From Candidatus Abzuiibacterium crystallinum (GTDB lineage: Bacteria > Omnitrophota > Omnitrophia > Omnitrophales > Abzuiibacteriaceae), in NCBI GenBank assembly GCA_002787155.1, contig PCVY01000023.1, forward strand, positions 6,828 to 70,827: DNA of 64,000 bases. The letters are read 5' to 3'. Made by a program: the position numbers and the translations under genes. Below the pieces are notes generated by a model. That model was not told the DNA's origin. It ran no database searches and saw only the letters and a program-made list of their open reading frames with translations. Numbering within the stretch: the stretch's first letter is position 1; each line of letters starts with the position of its first letter. This document shows positions 9,773 through 34,700 of the stretch, one piece after another.

Positions 9773-11449
9773 ATGAATCTCGGCAGCATACTCAAAGAGC
9801 GCGGTCTTCTGAATGCGGATCAATTGATTAAGGCCGAATCTTACGCTCAATCGAAAAAAATACCGTTAGGTTCGGCGATTCAGCGCCTTAATCTTGCCGC
9901 CAAAGAGCAAATTTACATGACGGTAGCCGAATCCATCGGTGTTCCTTATGTGGATCTATCCAGCTATGAAATTTCTCCCGATTGCACAAAATTGATCGCG
10001 CAAGAAACCGCGCGGCGTTACCGGGCCATTCCGCTTTTCAAAATCCAACAAACACTCACAGTCGCCATGGAAGACCCCACCAAATTGGCGGCGATTGACC
10101 GGATCCGGCATGAATCCAAAATGGAAATCGAATTGTGTTTGGCCGCCCCTGAAGACGTGCAAGAAGCTTTAGACCGTTACTTTGGCGTTTCGGGGACCAT
10201 TTCGAAATTGCTGGCTTCTTTAGATGCCGAAGACAAAGTCCGCCGGCGCGGAAGTGCGCCGCCCAAAGCAAAGCCGCTTAGCTTTGAAGCAACGGGGGGT
10301 GAACAGCCGATTGTGCAATTGGTCAATTTGATAGTCGAAGAAGCCGTGGAGCGGGGCGCCAGTGACATTCATATTGAACCCGAAGCAAACGAACTGCGCG
10401 TTCGTTACCGCATTGATGGTGTTTTGCAGGAAGCTCCTTCGCCGCCCAAACACTATGAAAGCGCGATCGTGTCGCGCTTAAAAGTGTTGGCCAATTTAGA
10501 TATTGCCGAAACCCGCATGCCCCAGGACGGTCAAATGAAAATCCAAGTCAAGAGCCGGGCCATTGATATTCGTGTCTCGGTCGTCCCGACCATTTATGGG
10601 GAAAACGCGGTCTTACGTATTCTAGATACCAACCGCGCTTTGCTCGACTTAAAACAATTGGGTTTTGCCGATGCCATGCTCCATCAGTTTGAAGAACTCA
10701 TCCGAAAATCCTACGGCATGATTTTAGTCACAGGCCCTACGGGCAGCGGCAAAACCACTTCACTTTATGCAGCTTTAACAGCCATTAATTCGGTTGAGCG
10801 CAGCATTGTCACCATTGAAGACCCGGTGGAATTCAAATTATCCCTCATTCGCCAAATCCAAGTGAACCCCAAAGCACAGCTGACGTTTGCCAACGGGCTT
10901 CGTTCCATTGTGCGGCAAGATCCGGATGTCATTATGGTCGGTGAAATCCGTGACTCCGAAACGGCCCACATTGCTACGCAAGCGGCGCTCACGGGCCATT
11001 TGGTTTTTAGTACGCTGCATACGCAAAATGCGGCGGGAGCCATTACGCGATTAGATGACATGGGGGTTGAGCCGTTTTACATTTCCTCATCGCTTCTATG
11101 CGTGGTTGCGCAGCGGCTGGTGCGTACCATTTGCGGGCAATGTAAAAAAACATATGATCCGCCTTCGGATATTCTAAACGCGATTCCGGCCAAGCACCGT
11201 TCAGAGATGAAGTTCTATAAAGGAAAAGGCTGTCAAAAATGCCAGCAAACGGGTTATCGAGGCCGTATTGGTATTTTTGAATTGCTTCGCATGACCGATG
11301 CGATCCGCCGGATGATTGCCAAAAAAGCAGTCAGTGCCGACATCCAACAACAAGCCGAAGCTGATGGCATGCAAACTTTATTTCTTGATGGTTTGGAAAA
11401 AGTGAAAGCGGGTATTACCACCATTGATGAAATTTTGAAAGTGATGTAG
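9773..11449 (+). CDS. GspE/PilB-family secretion or pilus-assembly ATPase
   Basis: 558 aa. It has an N-terminal T2SE_N/MshEN-like domain, Walker A GPTGSGKTTSLYAAL, Asp/His boxes (IMVGEIRDSETA, GHLVFSTLHT) and a tetracysteine cluster CGQCKK...CQKCQQTGYRGRIGIFE. Confidence 0.92.
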   Translation: MNLGSILKERGLLNADQLIKAESYAQSKKIPLGSAIQRLNLAAKEQIYMTVAESIGVPYVDLSSYEISPDCTKLIAQETARRYRAIPLFKIQQTLTVAMEDPTKLAAIDRIRHESKMEIELCLAAPEDVQEALDRYFGVSGTISKLLASLDAEDKVRRRGSAPPKAKPLSFEATGGEQPIVQLVNLIVEEAVERGASDIHIEPEANELRVRYRIDGVLQEAPSPPKHYESAIVSRLKVLANLDIAETRMPQDGQMKIQVKSRAIDIRVSVVPTIYGENAVLRILDTNRALLDLKQLGFADAMLHQFEELIRKSYGMILVTGPTGSGKTTSLYAALTAINSVERSIVTIEDPVEFKLSLIRQIQVNPKAQLTFANGLRSIVRQDPDVIMVGEIRDSETAHIATQAALTGHLVFSTLHTQNAAGAITRLDDMGVEPFYISSSLLCVVAQRLVRTICGQCKKTYDPPSDILNAIPAKHRSEMKFYKGKGCQKCQQTGYRGRIGIFELLRMTDAIRRMIAKKAVSADIQQQAEADGMQTLFLDGLEKVKAGITTIDEILKVM

Positions 11450-11459
11450 TTTAGAGATA

Positions 11460-11626
11460 CCAGAAACCGGTTTCATAAGTCCTCGTAAACCTAATAAAGA
11501 CATGTCATTGCGAGCTGAAGGCGAAGCAATCTCAGGTTTTAAAGAGGGATTGCCGCGTCGCTCCTTCGGAGTTCCTCGCAATGACGTGAATAAGGTAACT
11601 TATGAAGCCGCTTCCAGAAACCGGTT
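11460..11626. mobile_element. MITE-like palindromic element between the ATPase and platform genes
   Basis: The core has nested inverted repeats: GTCATTGCGAG (11504-11514) / CTCGCAATGAC (11575-11585), and GAAGCAATC (11523-11531) / GATTGC (11548-11553). Outer inverted repeats are TTCATAAG (11472-11479) / CTTATGAA (11599-11606). A 13-nt direct repeat CCAGAAACCGGTT flanks it at 11460-11472 and 11614-11626. Confidence 0.6.
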
Positions 11627-11714
11627 GCCAGTCAGCAGGTTAGTGATTCAGAAAATTTCAGCGGCACCTGGATTCTGGTTGCTGTTTTCCGGTTACTTGC
11701 TAAAGGGAACACAC

Positions 11715-12956
11715 GTGCCCATTTATCGTTATAAAGTCAAAACCGCGCAAGGTGAAGTGGTCACCGGTGCGATTGATGTTGAGAACAAGGAGTCGCTTCA
11801 AAAACAGTTGCGCACGCAAGGCCTGAGGCTTTTAGCGGCACAATTGGTTTCCACCAAGCCTGTTCCGGATGAAGACCGGTCCCTTCTGGTCGAACAAAAA
11901 AGAATCCGCGTTTCAAAAGCCCGTGTCCGCGATGAAGATATTTTAATGTTTACCCGTGAATTGCACAGTCTGGTCCGCTCCGGCATTCCGATCTTAAGCG
12001 GACTGCATTCCATGGCAGCCTCCACGAGTCACCGGACGATTAAAAATGTTGTTCTGTCTTTAGCCAATGATGTGGAAGCGGGCGAGCGGCTCTCAGATGC
12101 CATGCGCCGTCATCCGAACGTTTTCGAAGAAGTCTATGTGAGCAGCGTGGTAGCCGGTGAAGCGGCAGGGCAATTGCCGGAAGTATTAAGTCATTTAATT
12201 TCACTGCTTGAGCACCGGATTGAAACGCGAGGCGATATTCAAACGGCGACCCGTTATCCGTTAATTGTTTTAATCACGCTCGGTATTGGGTTTGGGATTA
12301 TCATTAATTTTGTCATTCCAAAGTTTGCCGGTTTCTACGCCAAATTTAACGCCGAACTTCCGCTGCCGACAAGGTTTTTAATTGCCTTGGGTCATTTGAC
12401 TTCCCAGCACGGTCTCGCTATGTTGGTCGTGCTTACTATTTGTATTTTCGCGGTTCGTATTTTTCTGCGTACGCCGATCGGAAAAAGTAGGTGGGACCAG
12501 CTCACGCTTCAAGTGCCTGTTTTTGGTCCGCTGTATCATAAAATTGCGTTATCTACTTTTGCAGCAACACTTGAGATGCTATATCGAAGCGGTGTTCCTA
12601 TCACGGAAGCTTTGCGTGTTGCCGCGCATGTGACCGGTAATGATATCGTAAGGCGCGGTGTGATCGACGTGCGGGAAGGTGTTTTGGCAGGCGAACCGAT
12701 TGCGGCGGTCATGAAACGGCATGCGATTTTTCCTTCGCTCATGGTGCAAATGATGTCCACTGGGGAGCAGACGGGTAACTTGGATCAATTGTTGCGTGAT
12801 TTGGCCAATCATTACGACCGGCAAGTCAAATATGAAACCAAGAACCTGACCACTTTAATCGAGCCCATGCTGACCATTTTATTAGGAGGGATGGTGCTGG
12901 TATTTGCCCTGGGTATTTTCTTACCCATGTGGAACATGATTCATCTCTTCAGATAA
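11715..12956 (+). CDS. GspF/PilC-family inner-membrane platform protein
   Basis: The listed ORF is 11502..12956, but its first ~70 codons are the translated MITE (MSLRAEGEAIS...). A GTG at 11715 is preceded by AAGGGA 6 nt upstream and gives MPIYRYKVKTAQGEVVTG, a typical GspF N-terminus, for a product of ~413 aa. Two T2SSF repeats are evident. Confidence 0.85.
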   Translation: MPIYRYKVKTAQGEVVTGAIDVENKESLQKQLRTQGLRLLAAQLVSTKPVPDEDRSLLVEQKRIRVSKARVRDEDILMFTRELHSLVRSGIPILSGLHSMAASTSHRTIKNVVLSLANDVEAGERLSDAMRRHPNVFEEVYVSSVVAGEAAGQLPEVLSHLISLLEHRIETRGDIQTATRYPLIVLITLGIGFGIIINFVIPKFAGFYAKFNAELPLPTRFLIALGHLTSQHGLAMLVVLTICIFAVRIFLRTPIGKSRWDQLTLQVPVFGPLYHKIALSTFAATLEMLYRSGVPITEALRVAAHVTGNDIVRRGVIDVREGVLAGEPIAAVMKRHAIFPSLMVQMMSTGEQTGNLDQLLRDLANHYDRQVKYETKNLTTLIEPMLTILLGGMVLVFALGIFLPMWNMIHLFR

Positions 12957-12969
12957 TGCCTTGGGGTGT

Positions 12970-13095
12970 CTTGGGGTCAGCACCTGAAGTTCATTGACAT
13001 TATTTAATATTCTTAATGAAAGCTTCAGGTACAGTCCCAACCAACCCTTAATATATAAATTGGAAGGTTGGGACAGGTCGGGGTCTGACCCCAAG
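12970..13095 (+). repeat. 126-nt nested-palindrome element (predicted three-way junction) just after the platform gene
   Basis: Outer stem: CTTGGGGTCAG (12970-12980) / CTGACCCCAAG (13085-13095). Inner hairpin A: ACCTGAAGTTCATT (12982-12995) / AATGAA..CTTCAGGT (13015-13030). Inner hairpin B: GTCCCAACC (13034-13042) / GGTTGGGAC (13066-13074). Confidence 0.55.
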
Positions 13096-13099
13096 AGTA

Positions 13100-13127
13100 T
13101 TGAACTTAACGTATTCTGTGGTATGAT
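13100..13127 (+). promoter_or_regulatory. Sigma70-like promoter (extended -10) for the first pilin gene
   Basis: TTGAAC (13100-13105), a 16-nt spacer, then TGgTATGAT (13119-13127). It lies between the palindromic element and the SD/ATG of the first prepilin gene. Confidence 0.4.
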
Positions 13128-13211
13128 AATTAAAGTTCAGTAAGCAGTTTTAGTTTCTATGTTTTCATGACGTTATGTTATAAAGATATCACTGCAAACG
13201 GAGGTCGTGCA

Positions 13212-13727
13212 ATGAAAAGTCGTCGTTTATCCCGAAAAGGTTTTACCCCGTTAGAGAATGAATCAGTATTAATTGGAAGTCATGACAAAAAGCCTATTGA
13301 TTGTCAAAGTGGAAAAACCCGCTTGAGAAAGAAACGCTCTCTAACGGGGTTTACGTTAATTGAATTAGTGATGGTCATTGTTGTATTAGGTTTTCTAGCG
13401 GTTGCCGCATTGCCGTCCTACTTTGATATTTCAACCGCTGCCCAAACAGCCAATGAAGATGGTGTCGTTGGCGGTGTCCGAGCCGGCATTGCCACCCAAT
13501 TTGTATCAGTGTTTACCACCGGAATCGGAACGCCTACATTTCCGGCTTCATTGGATACAGTAGGTGTTGCAACTACCTGTGATTCGGCTAACCCATGTTT
13601 TTCAACAGTATTACCAGGCGGTGTAACAGACGGTAATTGGACAAAAACAACCGCCACGCAATACACGGGCCCAAACAGCGGAACGTATACTTACAATTCA
13701 TCAAACGGCACTTTTACATCACCCTAA
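13212..13727 (+). CDS. Prepilin-type N-terminal cleavage/methylation domain protein (candidate major pilin/pseudopilin) with an abnormally long, duplicated leader
   Basis: GGAGG (13200-13204) lies 7 nt before ATG 13212, inside listed ORF 13167..13727. The sequence has RSLTG|FTLIELVMVIVVLGFLAVAALP (class III signal plus hydrophobic helix). The C-terminus is Thr/Ser/Gly-rich. Confidence 0.8.
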   Translation: MKSRRLSRKGFTPLENESVLIGSHDKKPIDCQSGKTRLRKKRSLTGFTLIELVMVIVVLGFLAVAALPSYFDISTAAQTANEDGVVGGVRAGIATQFVSVFTTGIGTPTFPASLDTVGVATTCDSANPCFSTVLPGGVTDGNWTKTTATQYTGPNSGTYTYNSSNGTFTSP

Positions 13728-13918
13728 TTTATTTATTCTCTGTTTTTCCTGTTAAGTGCTGCTACTGATGGGAAACTATTATTTCCATGTGATAACATGT
13801 ATTTTCACACAAAAAGTATTACTCCGCCCACGGACGCTCAAACAGTTCTATCAATAATTAATAGAAAAACTTCCCTAACGCAATCCGTTAGCAACAGCAC
13901 TCTTCAGAACTTAACCTT

Positions 13919-14386
13919 ATGCTGAATTTTCGCGCTGAGCGATGCAACCGAGTTTCTCGCGGGGCGGGGTTTACGCTTATTGAGCTCACCATCATCATTG
14001 TGATTATCGGTGTTTTGGCTGCTGCTGCTATTCCGCGTTATCTTGATCTCACCAACGAAGCAAAATTAAATGCCACCAAAGGTATTTTAGGTAATATGCG
14101 TGCCGCCATTATGATGCAGCGTGTGGATAACATCATCAAAACAGGTCAAGACCGTTTTCCGTCGTTAGCAGATATTCAGGATAATCCTTTTCAAACGGGT
14201 TGTACCGTTTTAGAAACGGGGGATCTTCCCGACAATCCTTTTAGTACAGGCTCGGATCCGGACGGTGTGGTGAGTACCACAGGCCGCCCCGTACCGACCG
14301 GTACGGATGGGGCGTGGGCCTATGATCCGCGAACGGGCGGTTTTTACGCAAACACCAAGAGCGGGAATGGCGAGGAACTTTTCTAA
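13919..14386 (+). CDS. Prepilin-type pilin/pseudopilin (GspG/PilA-like)
   Basis: 155 aa. It has RGAG|FTLIELTIIIVIIGVLAAAAIPRYLDLTNEAK, with Glu at +5 and the typical alpha1 helix. Confidence 0.82.
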   Translation: MLNFRAERCNRVSRGAGFTLIELTIIIVIIGVLAAAAIPRYLDLTNEAKLNATKGILGNMRAAIMMQRVDNIIKTGQDRFPSLADIQDNPFQTGCTVLETGDLPDNPFSTGSDPDGVVSTTGRPVPTGTDGAWAYDPRTGGFYANTKSGNGEELF

Positions 14387-14399
14387 TTTAGTAACTTAT

Positions 14400-14969
14400 A
14401 TGGGGTCAGACCCTGACCTGACCCCAAGACTAAGGGTCAGGTCAGGGTCTGACCCCAGGAAGAAGCGTTCCCTGTCTCTAACGGGGTTTACCCTCATCGA
14501 AATCCTGGTTGTTTTCACCGTCATCGTTTTTCTTTCCGTTTTTGCACTGACTAATTTCATCGATTTCTCCGCAACCCGTATCGAGGGGGCTGCCAAACGC
14601 ATTCAAACCGACATTCGTTATATTCAGCAAATTGCGTTGGCGCAGCAAAGAAGAACGCGTATCACCTTTGATGCCGGCACGGATAGTTATGCGGCTGAAA
14701 TGGAAAACACGCCCAATGCGGAAGATTGGACGTCGATCAATGACCCGCTGACCCGCCAGACTTTTCAGGTTATTTTTAATACGGGCGACTATCAAGGGGT
14801 TGATATCACAGGGGTGACGCTTGGCAGCGGGGATGTTTTGATATTTGATGAGATGGGCGATCCTTATACGGATGGAAACGTCGCTTTGGTAGAACCCGCC
14901 AATATTGTTTTAAACGGGACGCGTCAGATCCAAATCACAAGGGAAACAGGCCGTGTTCAAATTGTTTAA
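14400..14969 (+). CDS. Minor pseudopilin, GspH/FimT-like
   Basis: In listed ORF 14307..14969, the ATG at 14400 follows the upstream stop (14386). It has SLSLTG|FTLIEILVV followed by AKRIQTDIRYIQQIALAQQRRTRITFD, a GspH/FimT-type domain pattern. Confidence 0.72.
   Translation: MGSDPDLTPRLRVRSGSDPRKKRSLSLTGFTLIEILVVFTVIVFLSVFALTNFIDFSATRIEGAAKRIQTDIRYIQQIALAQQRRTRITFDAGTDSYAAEMENTPNAEDWTSINDPLTRQTFQVIFNTGDYQGVDITGVTLGSGDVLIFDEMGDPYTDGNVALVEPANIVLNGTRQIQITRETGRVQIV
14401..14457. repeat. REP-like perfect palindrome (24-bp arms, 9-nt loop)
   Basis: TGGGGTCAGACCCTGACCTGACCC (14401-14424) and GGGTCAGGTCAGGGTCTGACCCCA (14434-14457) are exact reverse complements. Confidence 0.9.
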
Positions 14970-15013
14970 CCCGTTAGAGACGCACGGGGTCTGACCCCAG
15001 GAGTACTACTAAA

Positions 15014-15436
15014 ATGCTTATCCAATTTCAAGTTGGAAAGACGCAATTGCAAAAAAGACGCTCTCTAACGGGGTTTACCCTGATCGAAATCGTGATTGTC
15101 ATCGTGGTTCTTTCGCTGGTAGCAGCCACACTTCTGACGGTGATGGGTGCCATTAGTCAAAACGTGATCCTTCCTTTCATGACTCAAATTGCAACCGGGC
15201 TCGCTGAAGAGCAGTTTGAACGCGTGATCGGACTTCGGTTTTCACAAGTCACAGACGAAGGGCCGGCAGCATTTGCGTTTCCCTTTACGGATTATTCGTA
15301 TGAGATTACCGTGAGTCCCGTTCCGGCAAATCTTTTTAATGATCCTTCCATGACACGTTACAAACAAGTGGAAATTGAAGTGAGTCACGCCTTAGTTGGC
15401 CATGTGAATGTGTACACGGTGGTAACCAATCATTAA
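15014..15436 (+). CDS. Minor pseudopilin (GspI/PilV-like)
   Basis: 140 aa. It has KRRSLTG|FTLIEIVIVIVVLSLVAATLL, a prepilin signal. Confidence 0.72.
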   Translation: MLIQFQVGKTQLQKRRSLTGFTLIEIVIVIVVLSLVAATLLTVMGAISQNVILPFMTQIATGLAEEQFERVIGLRFSQVTDEGPAAFAFPFTDYSYEITVSPVPANLFNDPSMTRYKQVEIEVSHALVGHVNVYTVVTNH

Positions 15437-15453
15437 CGGAGGGCTCGGGGCGC

Positions 15454-15478
15454 GGGGTCAGGTCCCGGACCTGACCCC
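15454..15478. repeat. REP-like 25-nt perfect palindrome
   Basis: GGGGTCAGGTCC-C-GGACCTGACCCC. It lies 18 nt after the upstream stop (15436) and 4 nt before ATG 15483. Confidence 0.9.
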
Positions 15479-15482
15479 TGAA

Positions 15483-16043
15483 ATGGATGACATGTTAAGT
15501 CGAATGATGCAAAAAAGAAGAGGGTTTACCCTTGTCGAACTGGTGATGGTGATTGCCATCATCGGGATCATGGCAGGCCTCCTTGGCCCTTTTTTGATTG
15601 TCACCGCTGATGCGCTGGATTTAATGTCCGTACAGTCCAATCTACAGGAAAGCGCTCAGGCGGCACTGGAACGCATGAGCCGTGATATTCGGCGGCTTCG
15701 GGATGATGAAAGTGTGGTGAATGCATCTTCCAGCTTTTTTTGGTTTTATGATGTGGATGACCGTCAAATGATTTATATTTTGGTCGGCAATACTTTGGTC
15801 CGGGTGATTTTTCCCGTTACACTTCCGCTGACTGTTCTAGCCGATCACGTTCAAACACTTTTGTTTCGCTATTATGATGACGATGGAAACCTCATTCCTT
15901 CTCCTGTGGTCGGATTGGGAACCGCCACCAATATCCGCCGCGTTCAAGTCGATATTCTTTTTGCAGACGGCAGTAAAAATTTAGTCGTGGAAGATAACAT
16001 TAGACCGAGAAATTTAAGACATGAATCCGATCGATTCTTTTAA
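15483..16043 (+). CDS. Minor pseudopilin (GspJ/PilW-like)
   Basis: 186 aa. It has MQKRRG|FTLVELVMVIAIIGIMAGLL followed by LQESAQAALERMSRDIRRL, a GspJ/PulJ-type pattern. Confidence 0.72.
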   Translation: MDDMLSRMMQKRRGFTLVELVMVIAIIGIMAGLLGPFLIVTADALDLMSVQSNLQESAQAALERMSRDIRRLRDDESVVNASSSFFWFYDVDDRQMIYILVGNTLVRVIFPVTLPLTVLADHVQTLLFRYYDDDGNLIPSPVVGLGTATNIRRVQVDILFADGSKNLVVEDNIRPRNLRHESDRFF

Positions 16044-17517
16044 AAGCTTGGGGTCAGGTCCGGGACCTGACCCCAGGAAAAAAGGTGTTTCACTGATCGC
16101 AGCCGTTGTGCTCATGCTGTTATTGGGCCTTTCGGGTGCCATTGGTTCGGCCATTGTGGCCAATGCCGGCATCCGCACGGTGCATACAGCACAAAGTTTA
16201 CAAGCCTTAGGCATTGCGCATGCCGGCATCGAATGGTATTTGGAACAATTGGAAGACGATACCGATTGGACTGATCAAACAAATGAAGTTCGCTTATTTG
16301 GGCCGCCGAGCACAGTGAGTAGTTTTACAATCCAGATTAACAATGCGTCTGCTACGGAAGTGAATTTCACATCCCTAGGACTTTTGGCGGGTTTGGATGG
16401 ACGGACCATGCAGCGCCGTTTAACGGTCACGGCTCAAAAAATGCCGTCCGCTTTTCTTTTTGCCTTGTATCAAGGCGAAGACCCGGGGGCTAACTTGGAA
16501 ATCAGAAATTCTTCCGTGGTCACAGGGGACATGTGGTCGCGGGGTTCAGTCAATGTTTTTTCTGGTAACACGGTACAGAATGGTTTGGTGTATGTGCCTG
16601 ATACCGAAACGGTGAGTGGTGCCGGTACGTTTACCGCTAAACAAATGACAGCGCCCTATCCCGCGATGCCGCAGATCACAACCACCAGTTACACCACGCT
16701 CATGGATGGATACGACACTACGATTGATACCGCTTCTGGTGCGGGTGATGATCCGCGAAATAGCGATATATTTTTATCGGGCAATACCATTTTGGCCAGA
16801 AACTTTTCAACATCAGGCACCATGACCATTACCGGGCACGGCACGATCGTCGCATTTCGAAATATGGACCTGCATACCGGCAATGGCGGAACGCTCACCA
16901 TCACACCATCCGGTGGGGACATTGTTTTCTTAGCAGGCCGCAATCTGGAAATCGGTAATACCAATGGCAATTCCACAGTTACAGTGAATGGCTCTGTGAC
17001 ACCCGGCAGTACCTGCCGCTTTTATTCAGAAGCCATGACCAATGCGAGTCAGCGCGTGCGGGTAAGCGGCAGTAATACCAATGTACACGGAGCTAATTTT
17101 TATGCGCGCCGCCGCATCTCAGTGGATAATAATGCTGTCATTGATCAGGGGAGTCTGCTTTATATTGATCGCGCCTCTTCCGCCAATAACAACCAAATTG
17201 ATATTACGGGTTCCGCCACGGCAGTCATCGGCTCTGTGATTAGTACCGGTCGGAATAATCTAAACCTTAGGATCCGGAATCAAGCGACGGTAACCGGTCT
17301 TGTTTATTCGTATGACACGGGCGGCAACGGACGTTTAGAGCTCAACAATTGCACCGTAACGGGTGCGGCGGCGGCCCAAAATTTCCGTGTCGGTAATAAT
17401 AACAATCGGATTCAAAGCGCAGCCGTTACTTACAGCGCCAGCGCTTTACCTTCAAGTGTTCCGAATGGATTTGAGACTTATGTTGTCAAAAAACCGAATT
17501 CGTGGGATCCTTTATAA
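16021..17517 (+). CDS. Large PilX/GspK-like pilus-associated protein with a repetitive C-terminal region rich in Asn, Thr, Ser and Gly
   Basis: 498 aa. The N-terminus KKGVSLIAAVVLMLLLGLSGAIGSAIV...AQSLQALGIAHAGIEWYLEQL matches the PilX N-terminal pattern and has no G|FTLIE site. The remainder is N/T/S/G-rich with short periodic hydrophobic positions, suggesting a beta-solenoid. Confidence 0.6.
   Translation: MNPIDSFKSLGSGPGPDPRKKGVSLIAAVVLMLLLGLSGAIGSAIVANAGIRTVHTAQSLQALGIAHAGIEWYLEQLEDDTDWTDQTNEVRLFGPPSTVSSFTIQINNASATEVNFTSLGLLAGLDGRTMQRRLTVTAQKMPSAFLFALYQGEDPGANLEIRNSSVVTGDMWSRGSVNVFSGNTVQNGLVYVPDTETVSGAGTFTAKQMTAPYPAMPQITTTSYTTLMDGYDTTIDTASGAGDDPRNSDIFLSGNTILARNFSTSGTMTITGHGTIVAFRNMDLHTGNGGTLTITPSGGDIVFLAGRNLEIGNTNGNSTVTVNGSVTPGSTCRFYSEAMTNASQRVRVSGSNTNVHGANFYARRRISVDNNAVIDQGSLLYIDRASSANNNQIDITGSATAVIGSVISTGRNNLNLRIRNQATVTGLVYSYDTGGNGRLELNNCTVTGAAAAQNFRVGNNNNRIQSAAVTYSASALPSSVPNGFETYVVKKPNSWDPL
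16050..16074. repeat. REP-like 25-nt perfect palindrome
   Basis: GGGGTCAGGTCC-G-GGACCTGACCCC. It lies 7 nt after the upstream stop (16043), inside the 5' coding end of the next ORF. Confidence 0.9.
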
Positions 17518-19803: not shown

Positions 19804-19960
19804 GTCATTCTGAGTCCCCTCTGCCGAAGGCAGTGGAGGACGAAGAATCCAGATAAAAAGAGATCCTTCACGGCGTTTACCCTGAGATGCTTCCCGCCAG
19901 AAGCGAGGCTCGCCAAAGGCGGGGCTTCGCTCAGCATGACATCGAAGGGCTCAGGGTGAC
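19804..19960. mobile_element. MITE-like palindromic element (GTCATTCTGAG ... CTCAGCATGAC type)
   Basis: Terminal inverted repeats: GTCATTCTGAG (19804-19814) versus CTCAGCATGAC (19930-19940), plus a second copy CTCAGGGTGAC (19950-19960). There is an inner GAAGAATCC / GATCCTTC pair. It is intergenic, and the antisense ORF 19797..20006 is its translation artefact. Confidence 0.6.
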
Positions 19961-31701: not shown

Positions 31702-34700
31702 ATGTTCATCCCTAAAAATATCCAGAGAGCCATAGCCTTTTTTCTTGCCATTTCATTCTCTTTATCGAATGGCCCAACGCTTTTACTTGCCGAAACTTAT
31801 CCGGGAAGCAGCCTGCCATACCATGCGAGCTCTGTGAATCCAAATGCTATTTTGGATTCCCTTAAGCTTCCCGGTGAGTTAGGCATTGTTCAAGAGGTTT
31901 ATAGCGCGGTACCAGGTACAACGGTGCCAGGTTCACAGAACCCGGCACCGGCTGTACCTGGTACCGGAATTGGTTTCAAAGTTAATCAACTGGTCATCCT
32001 CGTGCAAAATGCCCACGCCAATTATGATTCAGAGTCAAACGTCCGCAAAATCATCCAGTTCTTCCAAGAGCACTATCAATTAGGACTTGTTTTACTGGAA
32101 GGCGGGGAAGGCAAGTTAGACCCGCTTTTTTTTAAATCTTTTCCCGATGGCAAAATAAAAGAAAAACTGCTGGATCAATATTTAAAACATGGGGATTTAC
32201 AAGGCGGTGAAGCAGCAGCCATTTTGAATCATTCAAACAACCCAACGAGTTATTGGGGCATTGAAGATGAAACTTTGTACCAGCAAAACAAAGCGGCCTT
32301 CTTAAAAGCCATTGTTCAAACGGATCAAATCTTAAAACAGCTTACTCAAAAAGAAGCCGCACTCGAGGAAAACATTGCTTCATTGCCTGAATCATCACAA
32401 ACCTTTTACAAGGCTTGGCAGGCTTTTCATGCGGATGAGATGAATTTGCTGGAATACGTGAAAACGTTAGCTGAGCATACATCGGGTACCGGTTCTGTTG
32501 ACAGTGTCATTCCCGCTCGTCTTTGGCGGGAATCTACTGTGATCGGTGCTCTTGTGCGCTCATTTCCCGAACTTGCCAAATTGTTGGAAGTAGAGAAAGG
32601 CGAGCAAGCCCTCCAAAAAAGCGAAATTGACATGACCGTCAACCAACTGTTGAAAGAATTTCAATCAACTGCGCTGCCGGCGCTGTCAGTCGAATCACAG
32701 AAAGAATGGGGCCAGCGGATCCAGGATTATCAAACCGGCCGGCTCGGCGTGGGTTTTTTGATCAAACAGCTTGAAAGTTTTCTTACCATTCCCGATGTTC
32801 TAAAACCTGCTATTCAGCACGCCCAAACCATTTCTTCCGTCCGGGGAACAGAAATATTCCATGAACTTGAGCATTTAGAGAATGCTGTTCGCGATCAATT
32901 GCCGGGGCGTGAGCGCCTTCATCAAGTTAACGAACTGCATCTCTTGAAACGGTTTGCGCGTTTAGAAATTACACATGAAGAGTGGAAGGTCATTGCGAGC
33001 GCAGCGAAGCAATCTCAAGACCAAGGATTGCTTCGGTCATTTCATTCCCTCGCAATGACAGAAATGCTTAAGAACCATTTCACTTTCTACCAACTCGCAC
33101 TCAAGCGTGACGGCATTTTATCCGGCCGCATTCTCGAAATCATGCGCCGTGAATCTCAAAAAGTTTCGCTCGTGGTGACCGGCGGTTTTCATGAAAGCGG
33201 TATCAAAGAGCGCCTCCGGGCAAACGGCACCGCTTATGTTTTGATTTCTCCTGCGATTCAGGAAGTCGGATCAAACGAGGCTTACCTCAATGCCATGCAC
33301 GACAAGCGTTCTTTTATGAAATATTTTCAAGGCAGTTATTGGGATGCTTTGGCAAAGGATTACATGCAGCAATCGTCAGCGGCTGCGGGTCCGCAGGAAG
33401 AAAAGTTTATTTTTAAGCAGTGGCGCGATCAACTCATCCAAAACACGCTGCAGGAGGGCAGAATCACGCAGGCAACGCGTTACACGCGCTATTTGGATTC
33501 ATTTTTACAAACCGAGGGAAAACCAGCGGATGACAAAGTTGGCAGAAAAACTCAATTAGAAGGTGCTTTCGAAAGTTTCCTTTCAACTTATTTTAAACAG
33601 CATCAAGCTGATTTGAATGCCAAGCTTGATCATTTTGCGGCAGGTTTCAAAAATATGCTCACACAGGGCACCTTCACGCAAGGGGCGGTCGAAGCCTTGT
33701 TGCGTCAAACACAAGTCCTGCAAACGGCTCAACTCGCACCGGATCTCGCTTTGATTCCGGCCTGGAACCAATTTCATTTAAGTGAAGCAACGATTGAAAC
33801 ACTGCCTGATATCAACCAACCTCTTTGGCTCGAGCACAAGCAAAAATCCGAACTCAGGAGTGAAGAGGTAGACTCTGATTATTGGTATGCTTATGGTGAG
33901 GAATTCCTTATTTTGATGGAAGAGGTGGGGTACCGGATAGATGAAACTGACCTTGAAGGTGATATAACTCTGGAGGTAGAGACAGTATCAGACGATCGCT
34001 TTCCTAAAGATTTTAGCAAATTAGCTAAAAGTGTTCCCGAATCGGACCTCACACGTTTACGCGACACATATATCCATATTCTAAAGAATGCCATTGGGAA
34101 AAGTCGAACACTTGAGGAGATAGTTGAAGGCTTGAGCACTTTAATATTAAGGCAGGCAGGAATTCGATTAAATGACAGAAAATTAATTGAAGCCATTACT
34201 GATATTTTACTAACCTATAAAGAAAAAGGGGTGACGGGACCCACCCTGCAGCTGCGCCACGTTTATCTATTTCCAAGATATGGTGATGTGAATGAAATCA
34301 TTCAATTACTGGCCAACCATCGAGGGAAACGCGGAACCTTGAGCCAAACCCAACGGCAACTGATTGCACAGCAACTCGAAAACATGAAAGAGCAATGGCA
34401 AGCAAATTACGAAAGAGCTCAAGCCGAAAAAACCGAAGAACCTAAGGTTGATGGTCAACCCAAAACCGGTGAATCGCTTTGGCTGGAGGGTCAACCAAAA
34501 CCCGAACTCAGAAACGCAAAAGATTATACTCAGATGAGTGTCAAAGAATTGCTTGTAGAACTTCAATCAACTCGAAGTCAAAGTAGTCAAGTCAATTTTA
34601 AAATACTTAGGATTACCAGCGAGCTGGAGCAGCGCTCAGAGAAGATGTTAGACAGCGAGATAGTGGCGACTATCAATGCTTTACTTTCTGCATTGATGTT

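What the first reader, a model, noticed from the sequence alone, without database searches (positions are those of the whole stretch)
11460..11626. MITE-like insertion with a 13-bp direct repeat creates a false N-terminal extension of the platform gene
A nested palindrome (GTCATTGCGAG...CTCGCAATGAC) sits between the ATPase and platform genes. It is bracketed by the inverted repeat TTCATAAG / CTTATGAA and by a 13-nt direct repeat CCAGAAACCGGTT (11460-11472, 11614-11626). That is the geometry expected for a non-autonomous element with a target-site duplication. The element supplies the ATG (11502) that the ORF caller used, adding ~70 spurious codons (MSLRAEGEAIS...). The real start is most likely GTG 11715. 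The element lies inside an operon junction, so it could also modulate coupling between the two genes.
Basis: seen in the sequence. Interest (0 to 1): 0.5.

Follow-up and report, generated by a model that had tools for sequence, protein, structure and literature searches.

The report
Repeat-hairpin mini-transposon between two pilus genes
A 149-base mobile DNA hairpin has landed between two pilus-machinery genes of an uncultured Omnitrophota bacterium and tricks gene callers into adding about 71 false codons to the second gene; this kind of element and artefact is already known, so it is mainly an annotation fix.

Summary
The main interpretation holds, but the geometry needs correcting.

- **The element.** It spans 11465-11613 (149 nt). 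It has 16-nt terminal inverted repeats (AACYGGTTTCATAAGT) and a 5-bp target-site duplication (CCAGA), not a 13-bp one.
- **Copy number.** At least three other copies lie at unrelated loci of the same genome, Candidatus Abzuiibacterium crystallinum (Omnitrophota).
- **The core.** Positions 11503-11586 are a head-to-head dimer of TGTC/CGTC-tagged REP hairpins (ATTGCGAG, a variable mini-hairpin, GAAGCAAT). This family occurs in many phyla and in viral contigs.
- **Link to a nuclease.** In this genome, and in five loci encoding four close relatives from four other phyla, these units flank a small single-domain GIY-YIG gene. More distant relatives of that gene are flanked by the exact Neisseria NTS repeat. 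This ties the core to the published Ssn nuclease/repeat system.
- **The gene start.** Orthologous operons have the ATPase stop overlapping the platform start (TAATG). All 119 other listed homologues begin at the residue encoded by GTG 11715. ATG 11502 is formed at the junction of the element's left arm and the REP tag, so the 71-codon extension is almost certainly spurious.
- **What is unexplained.** The element plus one duplication copy accounts for 154 of the 265 extra bases.

This is a new member of known kinds (MITE, CGTC REP, Ssn-related repeat). Interest is modest.

The parts
9773..11449 (+). Upstream gene: GspE/PilB-type secretion or pilus ATPase (558 aa), stop codon TAG at 11447-11449.
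   Evidence: ORF. Pfam MshEN + T2SSE on the identical product.
11450..11714 (+). 265-nt intercistronic spacer that the two closest orthologous operons lack. In those operons the ATPase stop and platform start overlap as TAATG.
   Evidence: L007 and L009 junction sequences.
11460..11464 (.). Left copy of the 5-bp target-site duplication, CCAGA.
   Evidence: Similarity among the four copies starts at 11465. L132 shows the same geometry with CTGGG.
11465..11613 (+). The 149-nt non-autonomous element: a shell with terminal inverted repeats plus a REP-dimer core.
   Evidence: 89.9% identical to L131 and 92.6% to L132/L134; L133 keeps only the left part. All lie at unrelated loci of the same genome.
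11465..11480 (+). Left terminal inverted repeat, AACCGGTTTCATAAGT (family consensus AACTGGTTTCATAAGT).
11598..11613 (-). Right terminal inverted repeat, ACTTATGAAGCCGCTT (its reverse complement matches the consensus at 13 of 16 positions).
11503..11533 (+). Left REP half-unit: TGTC tag, ATTGCGAG, variable apex CTGAAGGC, GAAGCAAT, CTC tail.
   Evidence: Family pattern. Apex variation.
11546..11586 (-). Right REP half-unit in inverted orientation: CGTC tag, ATTGCGAG, apex containing the CTCC-TTCG-GAG mini-hairpin, GCGGCAAT.
11502..11504 (+). ATG used by the ORF caller. It is formed by the last base of the shell's left arm plus the TG of the TGTC tag. It is probably not a real start.
   Evidence: Sequence. 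The same ATG occurs in the other copies in non-coding or unrelated contexts. No homologue covers the first 71 residues, and the extension has no Pfam family.
11614..11618 (.). Right copy of the 5-bp target-site duplication, CCAGA.
11619..11626 (.). Flanking octamer AACCGGTT.
   Evidence: The origin of the similarity is unexplained.
11703..11708 (+). Weak Shine-Dalgarno-like AAGGGA, 6 nt before GTG 11715.
   Evidence: This is weak evidence on its own: 10 of the 19 called gene starts checked in this window show no SD-like motif.
11715..12956 (+). Platform gene (GspF/PilC type) from its most likely true start GTG (VPIYRYK...), 413 aa.
   Evidence: All 119 other listed homologues cover about 85% of the 484-aa query. 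The closest, P0002, is 413 aa and starts MPTFRYK. Two T2SSF domains.
32989..33060 (+). Second copy of the REP dimer alone, without shell or duplication. It is exactly 24 codons, in frame inside a giant ORF (31699 to beyond 63999).
19805..19941 (+). Third, diverged REP dimer (GTCATTCTGAG...GAAGAATCC / ...CTCAGCATGAC) in an intergenic region.

Best explanation
A 149-nt non-autonomous mobile element has inserted into the spacer between the pilus/secretion ATPase gene and the platform gene of Candidatus Abzuiibacterium crystallinum.

The element has two layers:
- **Outer shell.** It carries 16-nt terminal inverted repeats and made a 5-bp target-site duplication. That is the footprint of a staggered-cut, DDE-type transposition. 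The transposase has not been identified.
- **Core.** It is a head-to-head dimer of TGTC/CGTC-tagged REP hairpins. The same hairpin unit flanks the genome's small Ssn-like GIY-YIG nuclease gene. Units of this family probably act as single-stranded DNA hairpins recognised by that nuclease; this is inferred from published work on Neisseria and Wolbachia relatives.

The element is probably co-transcribed with the operon, because no promoter-like or terminator-like site was found on the + strand. In the RNA it would form a roughly -62 kcal/mol hairpin.

One of its six reading frames is open. By chance that frame is in phase with the platform gene, and the arm/tag junction supplies an ATG. Gene callers therefore extend the platform protein by 71 spurious codons. 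Translation most likely starts at GTG 11715.

Compared with orthologues, the stop/start overlap (TAATG) that couples translation of the two genes has been replaced by 265 nt containing this hairpin. Expression of the platform gene should now be uncoupled from the ATPase gene and possibly lowered. This last step is inference only.
For: **Multi-copy and mobile**
- The left-arm 20-mer finds three further loci (L131; L132 = L134; L133). They are 89-93% identical across the element with unrelated flanks.
- Their neighbouring proteins carry COV74_ locus tags of the same species as the window.
- Four independent short assemblies break inside or at the element, at window positions 11498 and 11528.

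**Ends and duplication**
- Alignment A2 defines the ends. The flanks are CCAGA/CCAGA here and CTGGG/CTGGG in L132.

**Core family**
- The tag is CGTC in 71% and TGTC in 23% of genome instances, and the tail is CCA in 65%.
- The apex mini-hairpins fold better than shuffles: mean -2.42 against -0.93 kcal/mol.

**Nuclease link**
- L133 11427-11768 encodes a GIY-YIG protein (Pfam E = 3.8e-16) flanked by the same units.
- Five loci encoding four close relatives from four phyla are flanked likewise.
- In viral contigs, 12 of 35 relatives have tagged hairpins on both flanks, against 1.2% of background windows. Some are flanked by the exact NTS consensus.

**False start**
- homologues; TAATG junctions; no family for the extension.

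**No signals**
- No promoter-like or terminator-like site on the + strand.
Against: - The platform reading frame is open across the whole 265-nt spacer. Only 0.46% of mononucleotide shuffles achieve this, so a translated extension is not excluded.
- The SD-like motif before GTG 11715 is weak, and many genes here have none.
- One of the three complete copies (L131) has imperfect flanking repeats, ACTAA versus CTAGT.
- No transposase with matching ends was found in the DNA held.
- 111 nt of the spacer remain unexplained, and its predicted fold without the element is not better than shuffles, z = -0.97.
- Any effect on expression is untested.
Confidence: 0.8

Rival explanations
1. The extension is real. 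The platform protein of this organism begins at ATG 11502 and carries a 71-residue N-terminal tail encoded by the element, as reported for some Rickettsia proteins decorated with palindromic elements.
For: - The frame is open over all 265 nt; only 0.46% of shuffles match this.
- The element has exactly one fully open frame, and it is the one in phase.
- Many genes in this window lack an SD motif, so its absence before ATG 11502 is not decisive.
- PMC3733652 notes that N-terminally REP-decorated proteins are expressed in R. conorii.
- A second REP dimer is tolerated in frame inside the giant ORF.
Against: - None of the 119 other listed homologues has the extension, and the conserved MPxFRYK N-terminus aligns with GTG 11715.
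- The extension has no Pfam family.
- The same element also runs in frame into truA at L132, which shows that open frames are an intrinsic property of the element.
- Given one open frame in three, and about 39 further codons, the chance of an open path is roughly 4-5% rather than 0.5% (own estimate).
Confidence: 0.1
2. One reading: the element is the 141 nt between the two 13-nt repeats, and CCAGAAACCGGTT is a 13-bp target-site duplication.
For: The 13-nt repeat is exact and not a chance event.
Against: - The other copies share AACTGGTT / AACCAGTT outside TTCATAAG / CTTATGAA, with unrelated sequence beyond. These octamers are inverted, not direct.
- L132 has a clean 5-bp duplication immediately outside them.
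- Under the 13-bp model, the window copy would lack its left terminal octamer while keeping the right one.
Confidence: 0.05
3. The structure is a locus-specific regulatory RNA, such as an attenuator or processing hairpin that evolved in place for this operon, and not a mobile element.
For: It forms a strong hairpin at an operon junction. REP hairpins are known to stabilise upstream mRNA in E. coli operons (own knowledge: malE-malF).
Against: - Near-identical copies lie at unrelated loci, in both orientations relative to their neighbouring genes.
- Orthologous operons lack it.
- There is no Rfam match even at E <= 10.
- There is no terminator-like T-run.
Confidence: 0.04
4. It is an assembly artefact: a repeat-induced misjoin placed the element between two genes that are in fact adjacent.
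For: Short-read assemblies break at the element.
Against: - Two independent ENA assemblies (L001, L002) are 100% identical over the 361 nt compared across the junction (window 11400-11760).
- Gene order matches the orthologues.
- The changed stop codon (TAG) and start codon (GTG), and the 111 nt of unique spacer, are not part of any repeat.
Confidence: 0.01

Closest known systems
CGTC-tagged REP superfamily (Di Nocera, De Gregorio and Rocco 2013, PMC3733652)
   Same: - An unpaired CGTC/TGTC tag.
- A-T pairs at the first two stem positions.
- A short CCA/CTC tail.
- Mostly head-to-head dimers.
- Placement just after the stop codon of the upstream gene in same-strand gene pairs.
- In-frame intragenic copies.
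- The paper already describes spurious N-terminal extensions of downstream ORFs, and REP dimers nested in longer palindromes (in H. neapolitanus).
   Different: - The stem is not a continuous 8-9 bp with a 4-5 nt loop. It has a 5-bp outer stem (ATTGC/GCAAT), a GA-rich internal loop and a hypervariable apical mini-hairpin.
- The host phylum, Omnitrophota, is not among the five phyla that the paper lists for CGTC repeats.
- Here the dimer rides inside a shell with terminal inverted repeats and a 5-bp duplication.
NTS / Ssn-related motifs and the Ssn GIY-YIG single-strand nuclease family (Nat Commun 2025, PMC11893778)
   Same: - Shared flanks: CGTCATT...AATCCAG.
- The repeat-gene-repeat arrangement around a roughly 95-aa single-domain GIY-YIG gene in the same genome.
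- Relatives of that protein are flanked by the exact NTS consensus.
   Different: - The units do not match the published SRM search pattern.
- Nuclease activity on this motif is untested.
- The paper shows cleavage and an effect on transformation, not transposition.
Bacterial MITEs with inverted-repeat ends and target duplications, for example Coxiella QMITE2 (150-190 bp, 7-11 nt direct repeats; PMC5896051) and Neisseria Correia elements (own knowledge)
   Same: Small size, no coding capacity, terminal inverted repeats, flanking duplications, several copies per genome, and overlap with annotated ORFs.
   Different: The duplication is 5 bp, no parent insertion sequence is known, and the interior is a REP dimer belonging to a different repeat system.
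REPIN/RAYT systems (Bertels and Rainey 2011, PMC3116915)
   Same: Two inverted REPs forming one long hairpin as the repeated unit, with the repeats flanking a single-copy gene for a nuclease acting on single-stranded DNA.
   Different: The tag is CGTC/TGTC, not GTAG. The flanked gene is a GIY-YIG nuclease, not a Y1 (IS200-like) transposase.
Rickettsia palindromic elements (RPE) inserted in frame into genes (own knowledge; RPE-4 and RPE-6 are equated with CGTC repeats in PMC3733652)
   Same: The second window copy (32989-33060) is a palindromic repeat of exactly 24 codons inside an intact ORF.
   Different: No orthologue lacking the insert could be found to prove that it is an insertion.

Membership tests
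MITE (non-autonomous element with inverted-repeat ends) | Small size and no coding capacity of its own | tested here: met
   149-155 nt. Five of the six frames contain stops, and the single open frame has no family match.
MITE (non-autonomous element with inverted-repeat ends) | Terminal inverted repeats | tested here: met
   16-nt AACTGGTTTCATAAGT. The two ends are perfectly complementary in L132. The right end has 2 mismatches to this consensus in L131, and in the window copy the left end has 1 and the right end 3.
MITE (non-autonomous element with inverted-repeat ends) | Target-site duplication of constant length flanking each copy | tested here: met
   A perfect 5-bp duplication in 2 of 3 complete copies (CCAGA, CTGGG). 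L131 is imperfect (ACTAA / CTAGT). The sample is small.
MITE (non-autonomous element with inverted-repeat ends) | Several copies at unrelated sites of one genome | tested here: met
   Window plus L131, L132/L134 and L133, all in Ca. Abzuiibacterium crystallinum.
MITE (non-autonomous element with inverted-repeat ends) | A parent insertion sequence with the same ends | not testable with these tools
   None was found in the roughly 100 kb of this genome held. The genome is not in the genome collection.
CGTC-tagged REP superfamily | Unpaired terminal CGTC (or TGTC) tag | tested here: met
   The window halves carry TGTC, CGTC, GGTC and TGTC. Across the family the tag is CGTC 71% and TGTC 23% in genomes, and 47% each in viral contigs.
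CGTC-tagged REP superfamily | A stem of 8-9 bp beginning with two A-T pairs, and a loop of 4-5 nt | tested here: not met
   The A-T start is present, but the outer stem is only 5 bp, followed by an internal loop and a variable mini-hairpin of 4-16+ nt. The paper does note odd loops in Bradyrhizobium CGTC-1. Its Figure 2 could not be read.
CGTC-tagged REP superfamily | A 3-nt tail, mostly CCA | tested here: inconclusive
   CCA in 65% of genome instances, but CTC in this genome and in many viral contigs.
CGTC-tagged REP superfamily | Head-to-head dimers predominate, with copies just downstream of stop codons | tested here: met
   All three window occurrences are head-to-head dimers. The duplication starts 11 nt after the ATPase stop, and the L132 copy ends 15 nt from the asd stop.
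Ssn-related motif (SRM/NTS) with an Ssn GIY-YIG nuclease | Match to the published SRM search pattern HGTCWYN(0-2)YYVSBRHN(0-5)WNVSBRGN(0-2)RNCYNB | tested here: not met
   None of the four window half-units, nor the typical family unit, matches. The NTS control does match.
Ssn-related motif (SRM/NTS) with an Ssn GIY-YIG nuclease | The repeats flank a small single-domain GIY-YIG gene on both sides | tested here: met
   L133 11322-11797 in the same genome. Five loci encoding four close relatives. 12 of 35 viral-contig relatives, against a 1.2% background.
Ssn-related motif (SRM/NTS) with an Ssn GIY-YIG nuclease | The protein belongs to the Ssn clade (cd10448) | not testable with these tools
   Indirect support only: relatives at 43% identity (L270, L271, L274) are flanked by the exact NTS consensus. 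Pfam gives only the generic GIY-YIG domain.
Ssn-related motif (SRM/NTS) with an Ssn GIY-YIG nuclease | The nuclease cuts single-stranded DNA next to the hairpin | not testable with these tools
   Needs biochemistry.
REPIN/RAYT | GTAG-type REPs that flank a Y1 tyrosine transposase (RAYT) | tested here: not met
   The tag is CGTC/TGTC, and the flanked gene is a GIY-YIG nuclease.

The most novel reading that the evidence does not exclude
The element may be the first visible footprint of how CGTC-type (Ssn-associated) REP dimers move. In this genome a REP dimer sits inside a shell with inverted-repeat ends that makes 5-bp duplications. In contrast, 131 naked dimers of the same family in other genomes show none. 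Either the repeat has been captured by a second, DDE-type mobilisation system, or the shell is part of the unit that the Ssn-like system itself mobilises. In addition, copies that are near-identical in their arms carry wholly different, perfectly paired mini-hairpins at the apex of each half. This hints at an active process that rewrites hairpin tips.
Probability: 0.15. Interest if true: 0.55.

Novelty: new member of a known kind. Interest (0 to 1): 0.3.

Why it matters
**Practical value**
- The deposited protein (COV74_02705, 484 aa, 'hypothetical protein') should be a 413-aa GspF/PilC-type platform protein.
- The same element produces at least one more false extension, on truA.
- Small palindromic repeats litter this pilus operon and inflate ORF calls in Omnitrophota and other uncultured lineages.

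**Biological value**
- The locus shows a tightly coupled ATPase/platform gene pair being pulled apart by mobile hairpins.
- It extends the recently described Ssn nuclease/repeat partnership to Omnitrophota and to a repeat family (ATTGCGAG...GAAGCAAT) that the published search pattern misses.
- None of this overturns current understanding.

Tried and rejected
- **Rfam.** No hit in the window at gathering score, and none in 11400-11760 at E <= 10.
- **Literature search by sequence strings.** It returned only primers and unrelated hits.
- **Genome-collection scan with the left arm.** Zero hits, so the source genome is not among the species representatives.
- **A pre-existing hairpin at the empty site.** The fold is not better than shuffles, z = -0.97. 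Rejected as evidence.
- **Single REP half-units as stable hairpins.** Under nearest-neighbour DNA parameters z is about 0. The model ignores sheared G-A pairs, so this is uninformative.
- **Homologues or internal paralogues of the giant-ORF segment around the second copy.** None were found, so insertion there cannot be proven.
- **A simple GIY-YIG sequence motif search over all loci.** It found nothing. A phmmer search with consensus-like queries then found the L133 gene.
- **Promoter and terminator scan of the spacer.** Nothing on the + strand.
- **Target duplications around naked REP dimers.** None above chance.
- **Supplementary files of both key papers.** They held no usable sequences.

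Full report
**1. The observation**

- The 13-nt direct repeat CCAGAAACCGGTT lies at 11460-11472 and 11614-11626.
- TTCATAAG / CTTATGAA lie at 11472-11479 and 11599-11606.
- GTCATTGCGAG / CTCGCAATGAC lie at 11504-11514 and 11575-11585.
- An ATG at 11502 opens a 484-codon ORF, and a GTG lies at 11715.

The 13-mer occurs exactly twice in 64 kb. The stretch 11455-11630 folds to -62.3 kcal/mol, z = -5.6. None of this is a chance pattern.

**2. Where the gene really starts**

The window comes from Candidatus Abzuiibacterium crystallinum, phylum Omnitrophota. It was deposited as Candidatus Omnitrophica bacterium CG11_big_fil_rev_8_21_14_0_20, locus tags COV74_. The 484-aa ORF is the deposited protein COV74_02705.
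- All 119 other listed homologues cover only about 85% of it. The closest (P0002, 66% identity) is 413 aa, which is exactly 484 minus 71.
- In the alignment every relative begins M-P/M/Q-x-F/Y-R/Q-Y-K, opposite VPIYRYK, which is encoded from GTG 11715.
- In the two closest orthologous operons (L007/L008 and L009/L010) the ATPase stop and platform start overlap as TAATG, with no spacer at all.
- The 90 codons upstream of GTG 11715 hit no Pfam family.

One caveat remains. The platform frame is open through the whole 265-nt spacer, which only 0.46% of shuffles achieve. The element has exactly one open frame of six, and it is the one in phase. SD motifs are weak or absent at many genes here. I estimate the open path as a 4-5% coincidence rather than a signal. 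I give the translated-extension rival about 10%.

**3. What the inserted thing is: the outer layer**

A scan of public metagenomes with the left arm (TTCATAAGTCCTCGTAAACC) found three further loci. Exact look-up of their neighbouring proteins shows they belong to the same species, with COV74_ tags.

Alignment of the four copies shows that similarity begins at AACYGGTTTCATAAGT and ends at ACTTATGAARCCRSTT. Unrelated sequence lies outside.
- The element is therefore 11465-11613 (149 nt; 155 nt in L132), with 16-nt terminal inverted repeats that are perfect in L132.
- Immediately outside lie 5-bp direct repeats: CCAGA here and CTGGG in L132. L131 is imperfect (ACTAA / CTAGT).
- Why the flank mimics the element's end is unexplained. 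Possible reasons are a target preference for sequences resembling the element's own ends, or insertion beside an old solo end.

Four independent short-read assemblies break at or inside the element, as expected for a repeat. Two other assemblies read through it identically, so it is not an artefact.

The element plus one duplication copy explains 154 of the 265 extra nucleotides. The remaining 111 nt match nothing else held.

**4. What the inserted thing is: the core**

The nested palindrome recurs without the shell at 32989-33060. A diverged form recurs at 19805-19941.

Each half is a unit of the form (C/T)GTC-ATTGCGAG-[variable mini-hairpin]-GAAGCAAT-CYN.
- This unit is extremely widespread. 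The hosts are Bradyrhizobium, sphingomonads, Rickettsiales, Bacteroidota, Chloroflexota, Patescibacteria, Planctomycetota, cyanobacteria and others.
- The tag is CGTC or TGTC in about 94% of instances, and the tail is CCA or CTC.
- The stretch between the conserved blocks takes 167 different forms. Many are perfectly self-complementary, with clearly compensatory differences, and they fold better than shuffles.
- Even copies of the 149-nt element with near-identical arms carry different apex hairpins.

These features match the CGTC-tagged REP superfamily of Di Nocera et al. 2013 (PMC3733652). That paper already reports:
- head-to-head dimers;
- placement within about 20 bp of upstream stop codons;
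- in-frame intragenic copies;
- spurious N-terminal extensions of downstream ORFs;
- dimers nested in longer palindromes.

The simple 8-9 bp stem with a 4-5 nt loop that the paper describes is not met here.

**5. Link to a nuclease**

The 2013 paper found no dedicated enzyme for CGTC repeats. A 2025 paper (PMC11893778) showed that the Neisseria CGTC repeat NTS (CGTCATTCCCGCGMAVGCGGGAATCYRG) and related motifs flank small GIY-YIG genes (ssnA). It also showed that these proteins cut single-stranded DNA next to the hairpin.

The window's units share the CGTCATT...AATCCAG frame but fail the published degenerate search pattern.

A phmmer search of all ORFs in the DNA held found one small GIY-YIG gene. 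It lies in the same genome, at L133 11427-11768 (Pfam E = 3.8e-16; P0131).
- One TGTC-ATTGCGAG...GAAGCAAT unit sits 7 nt before its ATG.
- An inverted unit supplies its last codons.
- A further unit lies about 70 nt beyond that.

Five loci encoding four close relatives (61-65% identity in the A3 alignment) are flanked by several such units on both sides. They come from Thermodesulfovibrio, Roseiflexus, Patescibacteria (two loci) and Deferribacter.

Among 38 more distant relatives in viral contigs, 35 have both flanks long enough to test. Of these, 12 have tagged hairpins on both flanks by a strict test, against 1.2% of background windows. Three are flanked by the exact NTS consensus.

The core of the finding is therefore a dimer of this genome's Ssn-type repeat. 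That the nuclease recognises or spreads it here is inference.

**6. Two layers, two behaviours**

131 naked dimers of the family show no flanking duplications above chance. The shell-bearing element does show them. The simplest reading is a small transposon with inverted-repeat ends, whose transposase is unknown, carrying a REP dimer as cargo. A parent insertion sequence was not found in the roughly 100 kb of this genome available.

**7. Likely consequences**

No promoter-like or terminator-like site lies on the + strand of the spacer, so read-through transcription is likely.

The ancestral TAATG coupling is gone. A long hairpin starts 16 nt after the ATPase stop. By analogy with REPs in E. 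coli operons (own knowledge), this could stabilise the upstream message and lower relative expression of the platform gene. That is untested.

At L132 the same element sits 15 nt after the asd stop, and its open frame runs into truA. This is a second probable false extension.

**8. Verdict**

The end points and the length of the duplication need correcting. The element belongs to known kinds: MITE, CGTC REP and Ssn-related repeat. The main value is annotation repair, plus a modest extension of the Ssn/repeat partnership to a new phylum and motif variant.

Noticed in passing
window 31699-63999 (+): A giant ORF of more than 10,767 codons without a stop runs off the end of the window. The ORF lister omits it for that reason. 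No homologues were found for residues 285-600.
   Followed up: partly
window 32989-33060: A REP dimer of exactly 24 codons (VIASAAKQSQDQGLLRSFHSLAMT) lies in frame inside the giant ORF. No shell or flanking duplication was seen around it. No orthologue was available to prove that it is an insertion.
   Followed up: partly
window 19805-19941: A diverged REP dimer (GTCATTCTGAG...GAAGAATCC and ...CTCAGCATGAC). Window 19888-19941, which includes its roughly 29-nt apex insert (CCGCC...GGCGG), is 94.5% identical to L133 8780-8833, and a similar apex insert occurs in the L133 7153-7205 unit.
   Followed up: partly
window 12969-16077 (for example 15454-15478, 16050-16074, 14401-14457, 13070-13096): A second palindromic repeat family, GGGGTCAGGTCCSGGACCTGACCCC, lies near the starts of several pseudopilin genes. 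ORF calls translate it as 'GSDP...' peptides.
   Followed up: partly
L133 11322-11797 (same genome as the window): A small GIY-YIG gene, annotated at NCBI as 'excinuclease ABC subunit C', is flanked by TGTC-ATTGCGAG units. The downstream unit supplies its last 13 codons. It looks like an Ssn-type repeat-gene-repeat cassette.
   Followed up: yes
L295 1501-1791 (Roseiflexus sp.); also L296/L297 and L298: Close relatives of that GIY-YIG gene, each flanked by ATTGCGAG units, sit in very different places: between cas4 and cas1, after dnaB, and after flaG. This suggests the cassette itself moves.
   Followed up: no
L009 6210-6250 (orthologous platform gene, P0004): The variable linker of the orthologous platform protein contains ...CCTCGCATACGCGGGAATGACAGG... 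in frame. This is a REP-like remnant, and it coincides with about 20 extra residues relative to P0002.
   Followed up: no
L132 2596-2750: The same 155-nt element lies 15 nt after the asd stop. An ORF starting at TTG 2718 inside the element runs in frame into truA, giving a second probable false N-terminal extension.
   Followed up: partly
one search hit table: Most of the 120 closest relatives of the GIY-YIG protein sit on contigs of only 0.5-3 kb. This is consistent with assemblies breaking at the flanking repeats.
   Followed up: no
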